A stretch of DNA of 64,000 nucleotides from a virus. The notes beneath the pieces were generated by a model. It was not told the DNA's origin and did not search any database. It saw nothing but the letters and a program-made list of their open reading frames with translations. Positions 25,799 to 53,190 of this stretch are shown piece after piece. The translations under genes were made by a program, and so were the position numbers. The stretch covers positions 1 through 64,000 of the IMG/VR virus record IMGVR_UViG_3300017782_000007; one strand, 5' to 3'. Every line of letters begins with the position of its first letter. Positions within the stretch are counted from its first letter, which is position 1.

Positions 25799-27406
25799 CT
25801 AACCGAATGGATTAGCTTCATGTGCCTGTGTAGGCTCTTCTTCGTGAATAGTACATTCAGTCATGATTATCATAGAAGCAGCTGATACTGCATTCTCAAT
25901 AGCAGAGGTAACTACTAATGTAGGATCAATAATCCCCATCTCTCGCATATCCCCAAACTTATCTGTATTGGCATTGTAACCAAAGTTAATGTTCTCGTTG
26001 TGGACTACGTTAGCCATGATAATTCCTGCATCTTTACCCGCGTTATTAATGATCTCTCTGGCAGGGGCTGTTAAAGCCTCTAATAGGATCTTAGCTCCTA
26101 AGTTCTCCTCAGCAAAGCCAAATATAGGGGTTACGTTAGCAGAAGCATGTAATAAAGCTGTTCCTCCGCCAGGTAAAGTACCAAAGCGAATAGCAGCCTT
26201 TACTGCCTGTAAAGCATCGTCAATTCTGTGTTTCTTCTCTACCATTTCAGCATCAGTAGCAGCCCCTACGTGTAGGATGGCCAAGCCACCAATAAGGTTT
26301 GCCATTCTCTCAGAATACTTCTGTGCCATGTAATCAGATTCTAATGTAGGCATAGCAGCCTTAATCTCCTCCAATCTCTGGGCTACCTGATCCTTAGGTC
26401 CTTCCGGCCCTAATAAGGTAGTAGTATTTTGATCAATGATAATCTTCTCGGCAGAACCGAAGTGAAATGATTGAATATCTTGTTGTGATATCCCTAGTTC
26501 CTTAGTGATTAAGGTAGCTCCGGTAGCGATAGCTAAGTCCTTCATGAACTCAGTTCTAATCTCACCGTAGTAAGGTGCCTTAACACAAACAACAGGAATA
26601 CCTCTTAGTTTGTTAGTAATAGTAGATTCTAATGCCTGAGCCTCAACCTCAGTGCCGATAATAACTAATGGTCTCTTCTGGGCCATAGCCAGATTCATAC
26701 AATTAACTGTTACCTTAGGATCTCTTACTTTGTCGTTGATTAAGACAATTAATGGATTATCATACTCTACTGAGTGCTCACCAGTGTTAACAAAATAAGG
26801 AGAGATAAATCCCTTCTCTAATTGCATACCTTCTGTGAACGTAGTATACGTATCATTTGTCTTAGATTCTTGTACTAGAATAACTCCATCCTTAGTTACC
26901 TTATCCATAGCCTCAGCTATTAGTTTCCCAATCTTAGCATCATTGTTAGCAGAGATAGTAGCAATAGCTTCTATACTCTCCTTAGACTCTGTTACGGGCT
27001 CAGATAACTTATTAATTTCTTCTAGTATGTGTGGAAGTATTTTCTCAATACCTCTCTTTAAATCGATTGGATTAGCTCCGGCAGCTATTAATTTCTCCGC
27101 TCTTTCTATGATGGCCTGGGCCAATATAGTAGAGGTAGTAGTACCGTCACCAGCAATCTTAGCTGTTTTAGCAGCAGCCTGTTTAATAACTTGAGCACCT
27201 AGGTTTTCAATGTAATCTTCTAGTATGATCTCAGAGGCTACTGTTACCCCGTCCTTAGTGACTACAGGGTTCGCGAATGGTTTGTTGATAATCACATTTC
27301 TTCCCTTAGGTCCTAATGTAATCTTCACTGCCTTAGCTAGTGTATCAACTCCTTTTTTTAATTTGGTTCTTGCTTCTTGGTTAAATGTTACTTTCTTAAA
27401 AGCCAT
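25799..27406 (-). CDS. groEL: Phage-encoded chaperonin GroEL
   Basis: TLGPKGRNV, TKDGVTVA, AGDGTTT, GGGTAL, GIIDP motifs. Confidence 0.96.
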   Translation of the reverse strand: MAFKKVTFNQEARTKLKKGVDTLAKAVKITLGPKGRNVIINKPFANPVVTKDGVTVASEIILEDYIENLGAQVIKQAAAKTAKIAGDGTTTSTILAQAIIERAEKLIAAGANPIDLKRGIEKILPHILEEINKLSEPVTESKESIEAIATISANNDAKIGKLIAEAMDKVTKDGVILVQESKTNDTYTTFTEGMQLEKGFISPYFVNTGEHSVEYDNPLIVLINDKVRDPKVTVNCMNLAMAQKRPLVIIGTEVEAQALESTITNKLRGIPVVCVKAPYYGEIRTEFMKDLAIATGATLITKELGISQQDIQSFHFGSAEKIIIDQNTTTLLGPEGPKDQVAQRLEEIKAAMPTLESDYMAQKYSERMANLIGGLAILHVGAATDAEMVEKKHRIDDALQAVKAAIRFGTLPGGGTALLHASANVTPIFGFAEENLGAKILLEALTAPAREIINNAGKDAGIIMANVVHNENINFGYNANTDKFGDMREMGIIDPTLVVTSAIENAVSAASMIIMTECTIHEEEPTQAHEANPFG

Positions 27407-47934: not shown

Positions 47935-48162
47935 ATGTTCGCAATAGCAACAAAAAAGAAGGTTTATATCACTCCAGAACACTATGAATTGTACGAAAAA
48001 GAATTCCAAGCCGGAACCTATGTACTTTATCATAAAACTGGTAAATATAGAACTTTCGTAGGGATTGTAGGGATCCCTCACACAGCTTGTCCCACTAAGA
48101 CGGTGTTAGTATCGCCTTTAAGAGAAACATATTTCGTCACTTTAAATCATAAATATCAATGA
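47935..48162 (+). CDS. Hypothetical protein
   Basis: 75 aa, ATGA overlap with the MoxR gene. Confidence 0.6.
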   Translation: MFAIATKKKVYITPEHYELYEKEFQAGTYVLYHKTGKYRTFVGIVGIPHTACPTKTVLVSPLRETYFVTLNHKYQ

Positions 48163-49178
48163 CAAAAGAATTTTTAGACAAATTAAACAAGATTGATTTA
48201 TCTCAAAGATTTATCAAGTCTGAACGATTTACCCGAGCCTTTGTATCAGCTCTCTCATTGGGAGAACATGCCATGTTTTATGGTAGAGGGGGACACGGTA
48301 AATCAGAGATGGCTATGGAAGCTTTTGCACAAGTTGGTATTGATCCATTTGTACTCTCCTTCCATGAAAATACTACAATTGAAGAATTATTTGGAGGGAT
48401 TGATCCTGAAGAATGGAAGAAAACAGGAAAGATTAAATATCTTTTTGAGAACTCGATGTTTAACCACCAGTATGTAATTGCAGAAGAAGCATTTGATGCT
48501 CCTGGAATCGTATGGGCTTCTATTAAAGATGCTTTAACTTCAGGACATGTTAGATTTGGTAATGATACATTCGAAATCAAAACTAAGTCTATCTTATTCT
48601 TAACAAACAGATCTAAGGAAGAAGTAGTTGAGGATAACTCTGTAGAAGCATTTATGCAAAGAATTGTATTCAATTTAAAAGTTGAATGGGATTCATACAC
48701 ACCTGAAGACTACTCTGATTTATTAGAGTGTGTCTTTAAAGATAGAAATGAACAATTTGCTACTATCATCTCAGATATGTCTGCTGTTTCAGAGGAAGAT
48801 TTTATCTCTCCAAGAACATGTGTTAAGGCATATAAAGCATATATTACCTTAGGGATAGATTGCTTACAAGAGTTTGAAGGGTTTTCAGTTGATAAAGTTG
48901 AAAGAATGAAGGATAGACTAGTTAAATTAGAGCAAATCAAAACTCAAAGAGAGAGATTAAATGCTTTTGGAGCTACTCTTCATGAAATTCGAAAAGGGAG
49001 TATCAAATTCAGTCAGGAAGCAACAATGAAAATCAGATTATTAAAAGAATTTCAATCTAAATTGAAAGCTTTGAAAATCTCTGATAGTTTATTTCCTGAG
49101 AAAAGTGAAATGATGAGAGATGTAGATGCATTGAGAAAGAAATTAGTTGAGTTATCAATAAATCTTCCTAAATCATGA
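48159..49178 (+). CDS. MoxR/RavA-type AAA+ ATPase
   Basis: GRGGHGKS, TTIEELFGG, VIAEEAFDA, FLTN, ISPRT sensor II. Confidence 0.85.
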   Translation: MTKEFLDKLNKIDLSQRFIKSERFTRAFVSALSLGEHAMFYGRGGHGKSEMAMEAFAQVGIDPFVLSFHENTTIEELFGGIDPEEWKKTGKIKYLFENSMFNHQYVIAEEAFDAPGIVWASIKDALTSGHVRFGNDTFEIKTKSILFLTNRSKEEVVEDNSVEAFMQRIVFNLKVEWDSYTPEDYSDLLECVFKDRNEQFATIISDMSAVSEEDFISPRTCVKAYKAYITLGIDCLQEFEGFSVDKVERMKDRLVKLEQIKTQRERLNAFGATLHEIRKGSIKFSQEATMKIRLLKEFQSKLKALKISDSLFPEKSEMMRDVDALRKKLVELSINLPKS

Positions 49179-50785
49179 GAGCAACAATACCTTTAAACGG
49201 ATATATTCCACCTGATGAAGATGATATTAGATATTTTTGTAATCAAGAGAATTACAAACATAAGGTATCAACTGAATTAATACAAGAACTTTGTAATTTC
49301 TATGTTGGAGGCATGGCTAGCTATGTTCCTACTTCTACAGTAGATAAAGAAGATGTAAAATATGTATCTAATGTACATAGATTACTTGAGAATCTTCCTT
49401 CTAATACCTTTAAAGGTTCTCCCTTGGCTAAATCTGTTCAAACAGCAGTGGCTATTAATTCTCTAAACAACAGTATTCTTAAAAAGAAACAACGTAGAGC
49501 TGTTAGAATGGACAGAGAAATTGCAGAATTACAAAGGAGACAACAAGAGTATCAAGATTTGTCAGACTCTGGTGATTATAGCCCAGAGGAAAGTGATGAT
49601 TTCAGATCTTCCAAGAGTGATATAAAAGAATATGAAGAGGACATAAGAGATAAGAAAAAGAAGTTAGATAAAGAGATAGAAAAACTTTTAAAACTTCTGG
49701 AATCTGAAGATAATCCTATGGAAGATTGTAATGATCCTGAAGGTTTAGCTGATGCTATTAGCCAATTAGCCTCTGATTGCGATCTTCTTGAACAAGCAGA
49801 AAAAGAAAAGAAAGAGAAAAGTAAGAAGGGTGAAGATGGCCAAGAAGGAGAGGGTGAAGGAGAGGGGGAAGGAGACGGTGAAGGAGAAGAAACAGAAGGT
49901 ACTCCTATGAATTCTGATGAGAGATTACATGATAAACATCCAGAAGACATCATGGTTAGTGCAGAGGCAATGGGAGTAAATATAATCAATAGTGATTTTA
50001 GTCCTATTAAATTCTCTGAAGTAACTACTGAAGAAGCTAACATCTTGAAGAAACTATCTGTAGTTAACTCTTTCAATGGTAGTATAGCTGGCGAAGCTAA
50101 GATTAAGAGGAAAAGAAAAGTCTCTTCTAAGAAAAGAGGTAAACTTAAAATGGAATCTTATAAGCAAGTTAACCAAGCCAGCTTCGTTGAACGTATGATG
50201 CCTGGATTCGATAAGAAGTTCATCCAAAAAGATGTACTAATTAAAGATAAGTATGTATCTGAGGTTTGTAAGCAAACTTTAGTACTACTTATAGATGATT
50301 CAGGTAGTATGAATTCTGAGTGGAAGATTGGGTGGGTTAAGGCATTAGTATTAAATAGATTAACAGCTGTTATGAAAGGAGACGCTACTCTTTATATCTG
50401 TACTTTTGAAGAAGAATTAGATCCTAACTGGGTTAAGGTAGGTACTAAGGCCCAAGCCAAAGATTACTGGAAATTATTTGATAGACAAGTTGGATTCAAT
50501 AGAGGTAATACTGATATTGAGAAGGCTGTCACACATACAATAGAGCAAATAGACAATGGTAAGCTTATCGGAGTTGATTATGATGATACTGCTACTATTA
50601 GTCTGAAGAAAGAAAGGCCACAAATATGTGTTATAAATGATGGCCAAGATTACATTGATAAAGATTATTCTCCTAAGATAATAACTCATGGTTTTATTTT
50701 AGGCAGAGATAATATAGAGATGAAAATCATGTGTGAACGATCTGGAGGTATATACCATAGAATCGGTCACGTTGACATTTATTAA
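49175..50785 (+). CDS. VWA (MIDAS) domain partner of MoxR (ViaA/CobT-like)
   Basis: LLIDDSGSM, GNTDI, INDGQD; acidic GE-repeat linker. Confidence 0.85.
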   Translation: MRATIPLNGYIPPDEDDIRYFCNQENYKHKVSTELIQELCNFYVGGMASYVPTSTVDKEDVKYVSNVHRLLENLPSNTFKGSPLAKSVQTAVAINSLNNSILKKKQRRAVRMDREIAELQRRQQEYQDLSDSGDYSPEESDDFRSSKSDIKEYEEDIRDKKKKLDKEIEKLLKLLESEDNPMEDCNDPEGLADAISQLASDCDLLEQAEKEKKEKSKKGEDGQEGEGEGEGEGDGEGEETEGTPMNSDERLHDKHPEDIMVSAEAMGVNIINSDFSPIKFSEVTTEEANILKKLSVVNSFNGSIAGEAKIKRKRKVSSKKRGKLKMESYKQVNQASFVERMMPGFDKKFIQKDVLIKDKYVSEVCKQTLVLLIDDSGSMNSEWKIGWVKALVLNRLTAVMKGDATLYICTFEEELDPNWVKVGTKAQAKDYWKLFDRQVGFNRGNTDIEKAVTHTIEQIDNGKLIGVDYDDTATISLKKERPQICVINDGQDYIDKDYSPKIITHGFILGRDNIEMKIMCERSGGIYHRIGHVDIY

Positions 50786-51903: not shown

Positions 51904-51908
51904 AATTA

Positions 51909-51954
51909 TTCCGTGGACCAAATGGTCGTAACTTCCTTTGCGGGAAGCACGGAA
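51909..51954 (+). ncRNA. Three-way-junction RNA motif, copy 3
   Basis: TTCCGTG/CACGGAA, GACC-AAAT-GGTC, GTAA, CTTCC-TTTGCG-GGAAG. Confidence 0.65.
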
Positions 51955-52213
51955 ACTATACACATCTATATTATTAGGACTGGATATCTCATTTTGTATT
52001 TGAGTATTACGCTAATAGATGCATTGTAAGCCACGAAATGTGGATTCTGGATAGATTGTCTCTCTAGTCCAGAAAGAGGGAGGAGAAGTCCTTAAAACGC
52101 CTTGTAGCAGGATTTTCAACCCTGTGTGACGGTGATGACCTCAAAATGCTTTAATATTAAGCACACTAAAACGTCAAAGAGTGTATGTGGGTTCGAATCC
52201 CATCTTCCGTGCT
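51946..52213 (+). ncRNA. Large (~265 nt) tRNA-like RNA
   Basis: AGCACGGAA/TTCCGTGCT outer stem, ATACAC/GTGTAT inner helix, GTGGG-TTCGAAT-CCCAT T-arm. Confidence 0.5.
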
Positions 52214-52440
52214 GGAAGTATGCCAATTGGAAGAGCAACTTATTATCCGTAATTATTCCGTATTGTTAAAGGTAACTATTGTAGAAACAGTCTCATTAGC
52301 TGTGGAACAAGATAGAGTTTAACATTAGAATATTAATCGAGAGGGTAGAAAGCCCAGTAATAGAGTGACACCTAATCTATAGATAACGATTCAACCTTAG
52401 CGGGCTTGATGTTTTATCTTTAGCGCATCAAAACAAAACA

Positions 52441-52506
52441 GCTCACTGCTAGTAGCTAAGCGATTCTGATATAATCGTGAAACCTGTGCAATTCAGGAAG
52501 TGATAT
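52441..52506 (+). tRNA. Degenerate tRNA-Ile(GAT)-like
   Basis: CGATT-CTGATAT-AATCG anticodon arm, CCTG-TGCAATT-CAGG T-arm, TCACT/AGTGA partial acceptor; reduced D-arm. Confidence 0.4.
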
Positions 52507-52523
52507 CAAAGACATTTTTTAAC

Positions 52524-52588
52524 GGGGGTCTATAGTAAGAGCTCGTTAGAGTACCGGACTTTTAATCCGGGGGAGACTATATATTCCC
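52524..52588 (+). ncRNA. tRNA-Lys(TTT) D/anticodon fragment without a T-arm
   Basis: GCTC-GTTA-GAGT, CCGGA-CTTTTAA-TCCGG, closed by TATAGT/ACTATA. Confidence 0.55.
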
Positions 52589-52602
52589 ATTACTTTAATT
52601 AC

Positions 52603-53040
52603 ATGAATTACACAAAAATTAGGAAACCAAGACGCAAAATGAAACTTGTAGAACCTTGGTTACAAAGTATTATTAAAGACAATGAATTCGTAGTATTACG
52701 TGATAAGCGCACTAAAAAAGCGTTACATGTAAGTTATACGGAAGACGGTCTAAAGTGGGCCTTGGACCCACGGACATCCAAATCTCTTTATTTCAAAGAT
52801 GCTTATCTTTCCCACGGCCGTGTTGGTGGTGAGGGCTGGAACGGTTTGTTCCGTAAAGAGAGAGATCCAAATACCATAGTCGAAAAGTTCATACCAATGA
52901 ATCACGTAAGGACCCGCAAAGATGGTATCGAGTATGTCGATACAGTCAACCAATCCTTAGAATTCAAAGCAGTGGATAGAGCTTTGCGAATGTTAACCAA
53001 ATCTCAGACGAGATTACTTGATAATTTTTCTGATAACTAA
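52603..53040 (+). CDS. Hypothetical protein
   Basis: 145 aa ORF inside the ncRNA cluster. Confidence 0.65.
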   Translation: MNYTKIRKPRRKMKLVEPWLQSIIKDNEFVVLRDKRTKKALHVSYTEDGLKWALDPRTSKSLYFKDAYLSHGRVGGEGWNGLFRKERDPNTIVEKFIPMNHVRTRKDGIEYVDTVNQSLEFKAVDRALRMLTKSQTRLLDNFSDN

Positions 53041-53046
53041 ATTTAT

Positions 53047-53123
53047 ACTCTTGTTAAGACGTAAGGTGCGGCAACATGTTTGAAACACATGTCTGTTCAG
53101 GTTCGATACCTGGTGCGAAGAGT
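53047..53123 (+). tRNA. Degenerate tRNA-Phe(GAA)-like
   Basis: CATGT-TTGAAAC-ACATG, TCAGG-TTCGATA-CCTGG; mismatched acceptor. Confidence 0.4.
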
Positions 53124-53125
53124 TA

Positions 53126-53190
53126 ATAGTACTGGGAGTATAACTATTGTGACATAATAGTGAACTAGGGTTCGAATCCCTTGCCGAAAT
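53126..53190 (+). tRNA. Degenerate tRNA-Val(GAC)-like, acceptor lost
   Basis: CTATT-GTGACAT-AATAG, TAGGG-TTCGAAT-CCCTT. Confidence 0.35.

What the first reader, a model, noticed from the sequence alone, without database searches (positions are those of the whole stretch)
52524..52588. Complementary 'bottom-half': tRNA-Lys(UUU) anticodon arm without a T-arm
Seen: a canonical Lys anticodon stem-loop (CCGGA-CTTTTAA-TCCGG) with a shrunken D-stem, closed by an unrelated TATAGT/ACTATA helix. Known: tRNA-Lys(UUU) is the target of the anticodon nucleases PrrC and PARIS AriB. Inference: an anticodon decoy against defence nucleases or modification enzymes.
Basis: partly seen in the sequence, partly recalled or inferred. 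Interest (0 to 1): 0.7.

Follow-up and report, generated by a model that had tools for sequence, protein, structure and literature searches.

The report
Degenerate lysine tRNA look-alike in phage
A marine crAss-related phage carries a 66-74 base descendant of a lysine tRNA gene that keeps a perfect anticodon arm but has lost the features needed to work as a tRNA; it is most likely a decaying or re-used tRNA relic, and nothing yet shows it is a decoy against host defences.

Summary
The sequence features are real. A perfect tRNA-Lys(UUU) anticodon arm lies at 52554-52570, and a 4-bp D-like hairpin lies at 52541-52552. The element is tRNA-related beyond chance: RF00005 scores 20.2 bits, E about 0.005 for the 87-kb phage. 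It is the only one of 33 CTTTTAA sites flanked by a 5-bp stem.

The TATAGT/ACTATA helix extends to 13 bp but is only weakly unusual (76 of 2000 flank shuffles match it). It competes with a 5-bp hairpin at the T-arm position, at 12% against 87% in the ensemble. Cut out alone, the element folds as a four-arm cloverleaf with no T-loop motif and no D-loop GG.

It is one of four tandem degenerate tRNA-like elements (Ile, Lys, Phe, Val) in a phage record with no canonical tRNA. I found no homologue anywhere, so neither conservation nor covariation could be tested.

Best reading: a non-chargeable tRNA-Lys relic (0.45). A functional anticodon-arm bait is possible (0.22) but unsupported.

The scan has found Lys-anticodon display RNAs on a Ro60-type handle in other phages. 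This element lacks that handle, and the phage lacks that protein.

The parts
52554..52570 (+). Anticodon arm: 5-bp stem CCGGA/TCCGG, 7-nt loop CTTTTAA, anticodon TTT at 52561-63 (Lys)
   Evidence: Read directly. Pairing probability is 0.91-1.0. It is identical to the arm of real tRNA-Lys(UUU) genes. It is the only stem-flanked CTTTTAA in the genome.
52541..52552 (+). D-like mini-hairpin GCTC-GTTA-GAGT (one G-T pair); the loop lacks the conserved GG
   Evidence: Rfam alignment to D-stem positions 10-13 and 22-25, with a 3-nt deletion in the loop. MAFFT and nhmmer instead align GCTC to D-loop positions 15-18.
52571..52588 (+). Hairpin at the T-arm position: GGGAG / 8-nt loop ACTATATA / TTCCC; no T-loop motif
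   Evidence: Ensemble pairing probability is 0.69-0.87. It is part of the MFE. The consensus scan also flags it as terminator-like.
52532..52597 (+). Cloverleaf reading (b): acceptor-like ATAGTAA (52532-38) with TTACTTT (52590-96), 6 of 7 pairs; unpaired A52589; discriminator-like A52597
   Evidence: RF00005 full-length alignment at 20.2 bits. This is the MFE of the excised 69-mer 52530-52598, at -18.0 kcal/mol, z -1.9.
52524..52588 (+).
   Evidence: -22.9 kcal/mol against an MFE of -23.4. 76 of 2000 flank shuffles reach it. In this register GGGTCTA-TA-G (52526-35) resembles a tRNA-Lys 5' end, and TATTCCC-A (52582-89) resembles a damaged acceptor 3' strand plus discriminator.
52443..52503 (+). 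Neighbour: Ile(GAT)-like mini-cloverleaf with anticodon arm 52461-77 and T-like hairpin CCTG-TGCAATT-CAGG at 52483-97
   Evidence: MFE (z -0.15, not significant on its own). T-like hairpin found.
53049..53189 (+). Neighbours: Phe(GAA)-like (53049-53122) and Val(GAC)-like (53122-53189) degenerate tRNAs with canonical T-arms and mispaired acceptors
   Evidence: ARAGORN relaxed and mitochondrial modes. RF00005 scores 15.1 bits at 53127-53182.
52639..53040 (+). Downstream gene (P0001, 133 aa, unknown function), about 45 nt after the element
   Evidence: No Pfam, PHROG or Atlas match. The AlphaFold model is unusable at pLDDT 50.

Best explanation
The element descends from a phage tRNA-Lys(UUU) gene and can no longer act as a tRNA. 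It keeps the anticodon arm, the 3' strand of the D-stem and position 26 intact. It has lost the T-loop motif and the D-loop GG that form the tRNA elbow. Its acceptor helix is weak and AU-rich, or mispaired, depending on the register. It sits in a tandem row of four similarly degenerate tRNA-like elements (Ile, Lys, gene, Phe, Val), inside two roughly 700-nt gene-free blocks of a crAss-related marine phage whose record holds no canonical tRNA. I read it as a relic of a former tRNA array that is transcribed with its neighbours and is neither charged nor used in decoding.

Shown: the homology to tRNA-Lys, the missing elbow motifs, the degenerate neighbours, and the lack of any detectable homologue of the derived form.

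Inferred: that the losses reflect relaxed selection rather than redesign.
For: - Homology to tRNA-Lys: RF00005 at 20.2 bits, E 0.005 per genome. There is 93.8% identity over 32 nt to annotated tRNA-Lys genes of T4-like phages. nhmmer and MAFFT alignments to real tRNA-Lys agree.
- Loss of tRNA essentials: no UUCRANY T-loop and no G18G19. Not called by ARAGORN or by Rfam at gathering thresholds.
- The neighbours are degenerate too.
- All eight IMG/VR contigs sharing the 23-mer AGAGTA plus the anticodon arm are ordinary full-length tRNA-Lys genes, so the truncated form is a one-off.
- A degenerate pattern for a short-D-loop Lys element gave only chance hits in IMG/VR.
- Homologues of the downstream gene sit directly behind a coding gene, with no such element between them.
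- DNA-polymerase relatives (about 30% identity) have no comparable RF00005 hit.
- Three folds lie within 1 kcal/mol of each other, and the closing helix is barely better than shuffled flanks.
Against: - The anticodon arm is flawless (17 of 17 positions) while I count roughly six lesions in the other ~47 nt. By a rough estimate of my own, that has about a 0.04 chance under even decay.
- Under the cloverleaf reading nearly all stems are still paired, which decay would not favour.
- The three neighbours also keep perfect anticodon stems. This is partly ascertainment, because they were noticed for that reason.
- Phage genomes rarely keep 1.4 kb of useless DNA.
- Earlier notes of this scan report that the phage's tRNA 'top-half' elements are conserved in relatives. 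I did not check this.
- RNA-library contigs cover the region, but they cannot show a discrete RNA.
Confidence: 0.45

Rival explanations
1. Functional bait. The element, perhaps together with its Ile, Phe and Val neighbours, is a non-chargeable tRNA mimic. It displays an authentic anticodon arm to bind or distract host proteins that read or cut anticodon loops, such as anticodon nucleases (PrrC, RloC, PARIS AriB) or modification enzymes. Because it has no elbow and no proper acceptor end, it stays invisible to the translation machinery.
For: - The anticodon arm is perfect and natural, while the elbow motifs are lost in both loops together.
- Stems stay paired in the cloverleaf fold.
- The neighbours show the same pattern.
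- The scan has repeatedly found phage small RNAs that display a tRNA-Lys anticodon hairpin (these are unchecked leads, not evidence).
- The loop and 3' stem read UAAUCC, which is the site type of the minor AriB target tRNA-Asn (PMC12409363).
Against: - No homologue was found, so there is no sign of selection.
- No evidence of high expression or of a discrete RNA.
- AriB needs contacts distal to the anticodon loop, and restoring the cleavage site alone did not make T5 tRNA-Lys cleavable.
- From my own knowledge, not checked here: PrrC prefers modified U34 and t6A37.
- A stoichiometric bait is a poor answer to a turnover enzyme.
- The host and its defences are unknown.
Confidence: 0.22
2. Re-used structural element of the transcript. 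In this reading it is a tRNA-shaped fold that serves as a processing or stability signal, like the phage's other tRNA-like intergenic elements. Alternatively, its 3' hairpin plus the U-rich tail acts as a weak terminator or attenuator before the downstream gene. The Lys anticodon would be a leftover with no role.
For: - It lies about 45 nt upstream of a gene, on the coding strand.
- All canonical T-arm hairpins of the phage lie between plus-strand genes.
- The hairpin at 52571-88 followed by ATTACTTTAA is flagged as terminator-like.
- The 13-bp helix has about the length of the acceptor plus T-stem stack, which RNase P can use as a minimal substrate. That point is from my own knowledge.
Against: - It lacks the T-loop and elbow that tRNA-processing enzymes recognise best.
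- The terminator-like hairpin is weak: 5 bp, an 8-nt loop and an interrupted U tract.
- A contig in run X4 (a guessed RNA library) runs through it from 52456 to 52644.
- This reading gives no reason for a perfect anticodon loop.
Confidence: 0.15
3. Working but very unusual tRNA-Lys, either a mitochondrion-style tRNA with a T-arm replacement loop or a tRNA without an elbow.
For: ARAGORN in mitochondrial mode draws it as a TV-loop tRNA-Lys. The 66-nt cloverleaf is the MFE of the excised RNA.
Against: - The same ARAGORN mode makes 31 calls in 87 kb, scattered over both strands and inside genes, so the call carries little weight.
- From established knowledge: bacterial EF-Tu, RNase P, the CCA-adding enzyme and the ribosome all rely on the T-arm and elbow.
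- There is no variable region.
- The acceptor helix is AU-rich and contains a U-U mismatch.
Confidence: 0.05
4. Remnant of an attachment site for integration into a host tRNA-Lys gene, or a chance resemblance.
For: Phage attachment sites often carry a piece of a tRNA gene (established knowledge).
Against: - No tyrosine integrase in the record.
- The retained part is the 5' and middle portion, not the 3' portion that attachment sites carry.
- Chance is made unlikely by E 0.005 for the record and by it being the only stem-flanked CTTTTAA of 33.
Confidence: 0.03

Closest known systems
Phage-encoded tRNA-Lys(UUU) genes (for example the annotated tRNA-Lys of T4-like Enterobacter phages; T5 tRNA-Lys, which resists PARIS AriB, PMC12409363)
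   Same: The D-arm 3' strand, position 26 and the whole anticodon arm are the same or nearly so. Identity is 93.8% over 32 nt. The location is in a row of tRNA-like genes.
   Different: No T-loop motif, no D-loop GG, a weak acceptor, and a score below every tRNA-detection threshold. It cannot be expected to be charged. T5 tRNA-Lys escapes AriB through base changes at positions 39 and 41 while remaining a full tRNA.
Truncated or decayed tRNA genes (tRNA pseudogenes) in phage tRNA clusters
   Same: Recognisable homology to one isoacceptor, loss of essential domains, degenerate neighbours, and no conserved counterpart found.
   Different: In this record every tRNA-like element is non-canonical, and the anticodon arms are conspicuously intact.
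Anticodon-arm mimics that bind tRNA-recognising proteins: the E. coli thrS operator (binds ThrRS) and the HIV-1 tRNA-like element that mimics the tRNA-Lys3 anticodon loop and binds LysRS
   Same: An anticodon-like stem-loop embedded in a non-tRNA context, upstream of a gene or in a leader.
   Different: Those mimics are conserved and have a demonstrated protein partner. Here neither a partner nor conservation is known, and the arm comes from tRNA by descent, not by convergence.
Phage 'handle' small RNAs that travel with a Ro60-like protein and display tRNA-Lys anticodon hairpins (unpublished leads of this scan), and bacterial YrlA Y RNAs (Rfam RF02553)
   Same: A bare Lys anticodon hairpin shown on a non-tRNA scaffold in a phage tRNA region. 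A weak YrlA-like hit lies 300 nt upstream (19.5 bits against a gathering score of 69).
   Different: No ACAGCAA handle motif near the element. No TROVE or DUF2828 gene in the record. The nearby vWA protein matches only generic vWA folds.
T-armless (TV-replacement-loop) mitochondrial tRNAs of nematodes
   Same: Under reading (a): an acceptor, a D-arm, an anticodon arm and a short loop in place of the variable region and T-arm.
   Different: Those tRNAs need a dedicated EF-Tu and are confined to mitochondria (established knowledge). Here 10 nt, not 2, separate the acceptor from the D-stem.

Membership tests
Canonical tRNA (Rfam RF00005 / ARAGORN) | Scores at or above the curated threshold, or is called by a tRNA finder | tested here: not met
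   20.2 bits against a gathering score of 29. ARAGORN default gives 0 genes, and it is not called even at 80% thresholds.
Canonical tRNA (Rfam RF00005 / ARAGORN) | 7-nt anticodon loop with U33 and a purine at 37 on a 5-bp stem | tested here: met
   CTTTTAA on CCGGA/TCCGG, identical to real tRNA-Lys arms.
Canonical tRNA (Rfam RF00005 / ARAGORN) | T-loop motif (T54-Psi55-C56, UUCRANY) and D-loop G18G19, which form the elbow | tested here: not met
   The loop at the T position is ACTATATA (8 nt) and the D-like loop is GTTA. A scan for T-arm hairpins finds none in 52524-52600.
Canonical tRNA (Rfam RF00005 / ARAGORN) | 7-bp acceptor stem joined directly to the T-stem | tested here: inconclusive
   Reading (b) has 6 of 7 pairs, AU-rich, with an extra A52589. 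Reading (a) has 5-6 of 7 pairs.
tRNA pseudogene / relic | Homology to a tRNA together with loss of essential domains | tested here: met
tRNA pseudogene / relic | Not conserved in its derived form; relatives have an intact gene or nothing at the site | tested here: inconclusive
   No homologue of the derived form was found.
Ro60-handle / Y-RNA-like phage small RNAs (scan-internal) and YrlA (RF02553) | Conserved handle (hairpin plus ACAGCAA) or a Ro-binding stem | tested here: not met
   No ACAGCAA between 38.5 and 56 kb. No RF02553 hit on the element.
Ro60-handle / Y-RNA-like phage small RNAs (scan-internal) and YrlA (RF02553) | Ro60-like (TROVE or DUF2828) protein gene in the genome | tested here: not met
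   PF05731 and PF11443 give no match at E up to 10 in the 87-kb record, which is about 85% complete. The model of the vWA protein 49175-50785 matches only vWA domains.
Anticodon-nuclease decoy (no curated family) | Binds or competes for an anticodon nuclease, and is abundant during infection | not testable with these tools
   Only contigs were available. Run X4 (a guessed RNA library) has an identical 189-nt contig at 52456-52644 at depth 3.9, which shows neither abundance nor RNA ends.
Phage attachment site with a tRNA fragment | Integrase gene, and identity to the 3' part of a host tRNA | tested here: not met
   No PF00589 match. The tRNA-like part is the D-arm and anticodon arm, and the 3' part is unrecognisable.

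The most novel reading that the evidence does not exclude
The four tandem elements (Ile, Lys, Phe, Val) are a deliberate set of non-chargeable tRNA mimics with damaged elbows or acceptor ends. They present authentic anticodon arms as baits or sponges for host anticodon-directed nucleases or modification enzymes. This would be a defence-evasion strategy distinct from carrying resistant full-length tRNAs, and it would have arisen independently of the Ro60-handle RNAs seen elsewhere in this scan.
Probability: 0.15. Interest if true: 0.8.

Novelty: new member of a known kind. Interest (0 to 1): 0.33.

Why it matters
If it is a relic, it records how a phage tRNA array decays. It may also be raw material for the tRNA-shaped intergenic elements this phage lineage uses. 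That is useful for annotation but unsurprising.

If the anticodon arm is kept on purpose, it would be an RNA bait against tRNA-targeting immunity (PrrC, RloC, PARIS). No such counter-defence has been demonstrated. It would also fit the scan's repeated sightings of Lys-anticodon display RNAs in unrelated phages. The present data cannot tell these readings apart.

Tried and rejected
- **Exact and degenerate DNA patterns in IMG/VR.** A 25-mer gave 0 hits. A short-D-loop Lys pattern gave 72 hits, none with a fully paired anticodon stem and most in what look like coding regions. A 23-mer gave 8 hits, all ordinary tRNA-Lys genes.
- **Flanking-protein routes.** The downstream ORF has no relative in IMG/VR.
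- **DNA-polymerase relatives.** 21 loci at about 30% identity have no tRNA near the polymerase gene. Seventeen whole records gave no comparable RF00005 hit. Canonical tRNAs occur only in the three most distant records.
- **Host clue from the anticodon arm.** The 17-mer occurs in tRNA-Lys of many phyla, bacterial and archaeal, so it gives no clue.
- **Split or interrupted tRNA.** None of the phage's T-arm hairpins is followed by a complement of the element's 5' strand.
- **Hidden coding under TAG=Q or TGA=W.** No convincing ORF covers the element.
- **Promoter.** The apparent extended -10 (TGATATAAT, 52467-75) is the anticodon loop of the Ile-like element, and the σ70-type consensus scan did not list it.
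- **Sequencing runs.** Four runs were laid, all as contigs. The element is covered only in X4, whose RNA status is a guess, and no variant was seen. Nothing can be said about expression level, RNA ends or absence.
- **Downstream protein.** No Pfam, PHROG or Atlas match, and the AlphaFold model is too poor to search.
- **Ro60 lead.** TROVE and DUF2828 are absent, and the vWA protein is not Ro60-like.
- **Register (a') by covariance model.** Cutting the sequence at 52590 did not make the tRNA model switch to the GGGTCTA acceptor register.
- **Literature.** I found no paper on tRNA-like elements in marine crAss-like phages or on anticodon-arm decoys.

Full report
**What is in the sequence.** The window is the first 64 kb of an 86,835-bp IMG/VR virus record, classed as linear and about 85% complete. 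It is a tailed phage with terminase, portal, major head protein and a GroEL-like gene. Its DNA polymerase is nearest to crAss-like phages, at 27-30% amino-acid identity.

The stretch 52524-52600 lies on the coding strand, inside a gene-free block of about 700 nt (51904-52638). It contains:
- A perfect anticodon arm: stem 52554-58 with 52566-70, loop CTTTTAA, anticodon TTT.
- A 4-bp hairpin GCTC-GTTA-GAGT at 52541-52.

No ORF under table 11, TAG=Q or TGA=W plausibly covers it.

**Is it more than chance?** Yes.
- The Rfam tRNA model aligns 52532-52597 end to end at 20.2 bits. That is below the gathering score of 29, but E is 0.005 for the whole record.
- Of the 33 CTTTTAA sites on both strands, only this one is flanked by a 5-bp stem.
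- The 17-nt arm is letter-for-letter the anticodon arm of genuine tRNA-Lys(UUU) genes in more than 120 species of many phyla.
- With six bases of the preceding D-arm and position 26 added, the same 23-mer occurs in eight ordinary phage tRNA-Lys genes in IMG/VR.
- blastn finds 93.8% identity over 32 nt to annotated tRNA-Lys genes of T4-like phages.

The element therefore descends from a tRNA-Lys gene. It is not a convergent look-alike.

**Which fold?** Three folds lie within 1 kcal/mol of each other.
It can be extended to 13 bp (52524-36 with 52576-88), giving -22.9 kcal/mol.
- (c) The MFE at -23.4 kcal/mol. It pairs 52545-53 with 52591-99 and keeps a hairpin GGGAG-N8-TTCCC at 52571-88.
- (b) A four-arm cloverleaf. 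It is the Rfam alignment, and it is also the MFE when the 69-mer 52530-52598 is folded alone (-18.0 kcal/mol, z -1.9).

I held the D-like and anticodon hairpins fixed and shuffled the flanks. In 76 of 2000 trials the shuffled flanks folded at least as well as the real ones. The closing helix is therefore possible but not established. 'T-armless' is better put as 'no T-loop motif'.

Two homology registers are also possible:
- The covariance model prefers ATAGTAA/TTACTTT as the acceptor, with a shortened D-loop.
- MAFFT and nhmmer align the D region at full length. In that register GGGTCTA-TA-G (52526-35) is the tRNA 5' end and TATTCCC-A (52582-89) is a damaged acceptor 3' strand. Six bases (ACTATA) then stand where the 17-nt T-arm should be.

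In either register the elbow signals are gone: the D-loop GG and the T-loop UUCRANY motif.

**Surroundings.** The element is one of a row.
- Directly upstream lies an Ile(GAT)-like mini-cloverleaf (52443-52503). Its anticodon loop is what looks like an extended -10 promoter.
- After the 133-aa gene come a Phe(GAA)-like element (53049-53122) and a Val(GAC)-like element (53122-53189). Both have canonical T-arms but mispaired acceptors.
- No element in the record reaches the tRNA threshold.
- All canonical T-arm hairpins lie on the plus strand between 41 and 57 kb. None is followed by a complement of the Lys element's 5' strand, so this is not a split tRNA.

**Relatives.** I could not find any sequence that shares this intergenic region.
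- Exact and degenerate patterns in IMG/VR gave nothing but chance hits or ordinary tRNA-Lys genes.
- The downstream protein has three homologues at 38-41% identity. On the two short contigs I could read, it follows a coding gene after a 45-nt gap, with no tRNA-like hit.
- Phages related through the polymerase gene (about 30% identity) have no comparable tRNA-model hit.

**Expression.** Only assembled contigs of public runs were available. One run whose RNA status is a guess holds an identical 189-nt contig across the element (52456-52644). A true metatranscriptome holds pieces of the second gene-free block. This shows presence only. It gives no information on RNA ends or abundance.

**Leads from earlier notes, tested here.** The scan has repeatedly reported phage small RNAs that show a Lys anticodon hairpin on a conserved 'handle' and that travel with a Ro60-like protein. 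This element does not belong to that group:
- There is no ACAGCAA motif nearby.
- There is no TROVE or DUF2828 gene in the record.
- The neighbouring 536-aa vWA protein sits beside a MoxR-like ATPase gene. Its model has long helices plus a generic vWA domain, and Ro60 is not among its structural matches.
- There is no integrase and no RNA ligase.

**Interpretation.** I think the element is most likely a non-chargeable relic of a tRNA-Lys gene in a decayed array (0.45).

Two observations keep the functional readings alive.
- The anticodon arm is untouched while the rest carries about six lesions. By my own rough estimate, that has about a 0.04 chance under even decay.
- In the cloverleaf fold the stems remain paired.

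A bait for anticodon-directed proteins is possible (0.22). However, published work on AriB shows that the site sequence alone does not make a tRNA a substrate (PMC12409363). The element's UAAUCC matches only the site type of a minor AriB target. A re-used processing, stability or terminator element (0.15) and an odd working tRNA (0.05) are less likely.

**Verdict.** The decoy idea is neither supported nor refuted. Interest is modest unless relatives or RNA data show that the derived form is maintained.

Noticed in passing
window 52443-52503 (+): An Ile(GAT)-like mini-cloverleaf lies directly upstream. It has a 5-bp acceptor, a 3-bp D hairpin, a perfect anticodon arm at 52461-77, and a T-like hairpin whose loop is TGCAATT. 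Its anticodon loop reads TGATATAAT and so mimics an extended -10 promoter. As in the Lys element's cloverleaf, one unpaired A separates the T-like hairpin from the 3' acceptor strand.
   Followed up: partly
window 53049-53189 (+): Tandem Phe(GAA)-like and Val(GAC)-like elements have canonical T-arms and paired anticodon stems but mispaired acceptors. A metatranscriptome contig (run X8) begins exactly at 53122, the junction between the two elements.
   Followed up: partly
window 52162-52270 (+): A weak YrlA (Y RNA-like) hit scores 19.5 bits against a gathering score of 69. The parts run in the order T-arm, hairpin, D-arm. No Ro60, TROVE or DUF2828 gene is in the record.
   Followed up: partly
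window 48159-50785 (+): A MoxR-like AAA ATPase gene is followed by a gene for a 536-aa protein with long N-terminal helices, a Gly/Glu-rich disordered stretch and a C-terminal vWA domain. The low-complexity part (about 49843-49889) attracts many unrelated metagenome contigs.
   Followed up: partly
window 25799-27406 (-): A phage-encoded GroEL-like chaperonin (PHROG 5725, E 3e-142) lies next to the terminase gene.
   Followed up: no
window, mostly minus strand 3-22 kb: The heptamer ACAGCAA occurs 16 times against 8.0 expected, and 0 of 100 shuffles reach that count. All copies lie outside the tRNA-like blocks, and most fall within the span of the minus-strand structural-gene block.
   Followed up: no
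window 51957-52432 (+): The first gene-free block, upstream of the Ile-like element, is the deepest contig (12.2) in run X4. That run's RNA status is only a guess.
   Followed up: no
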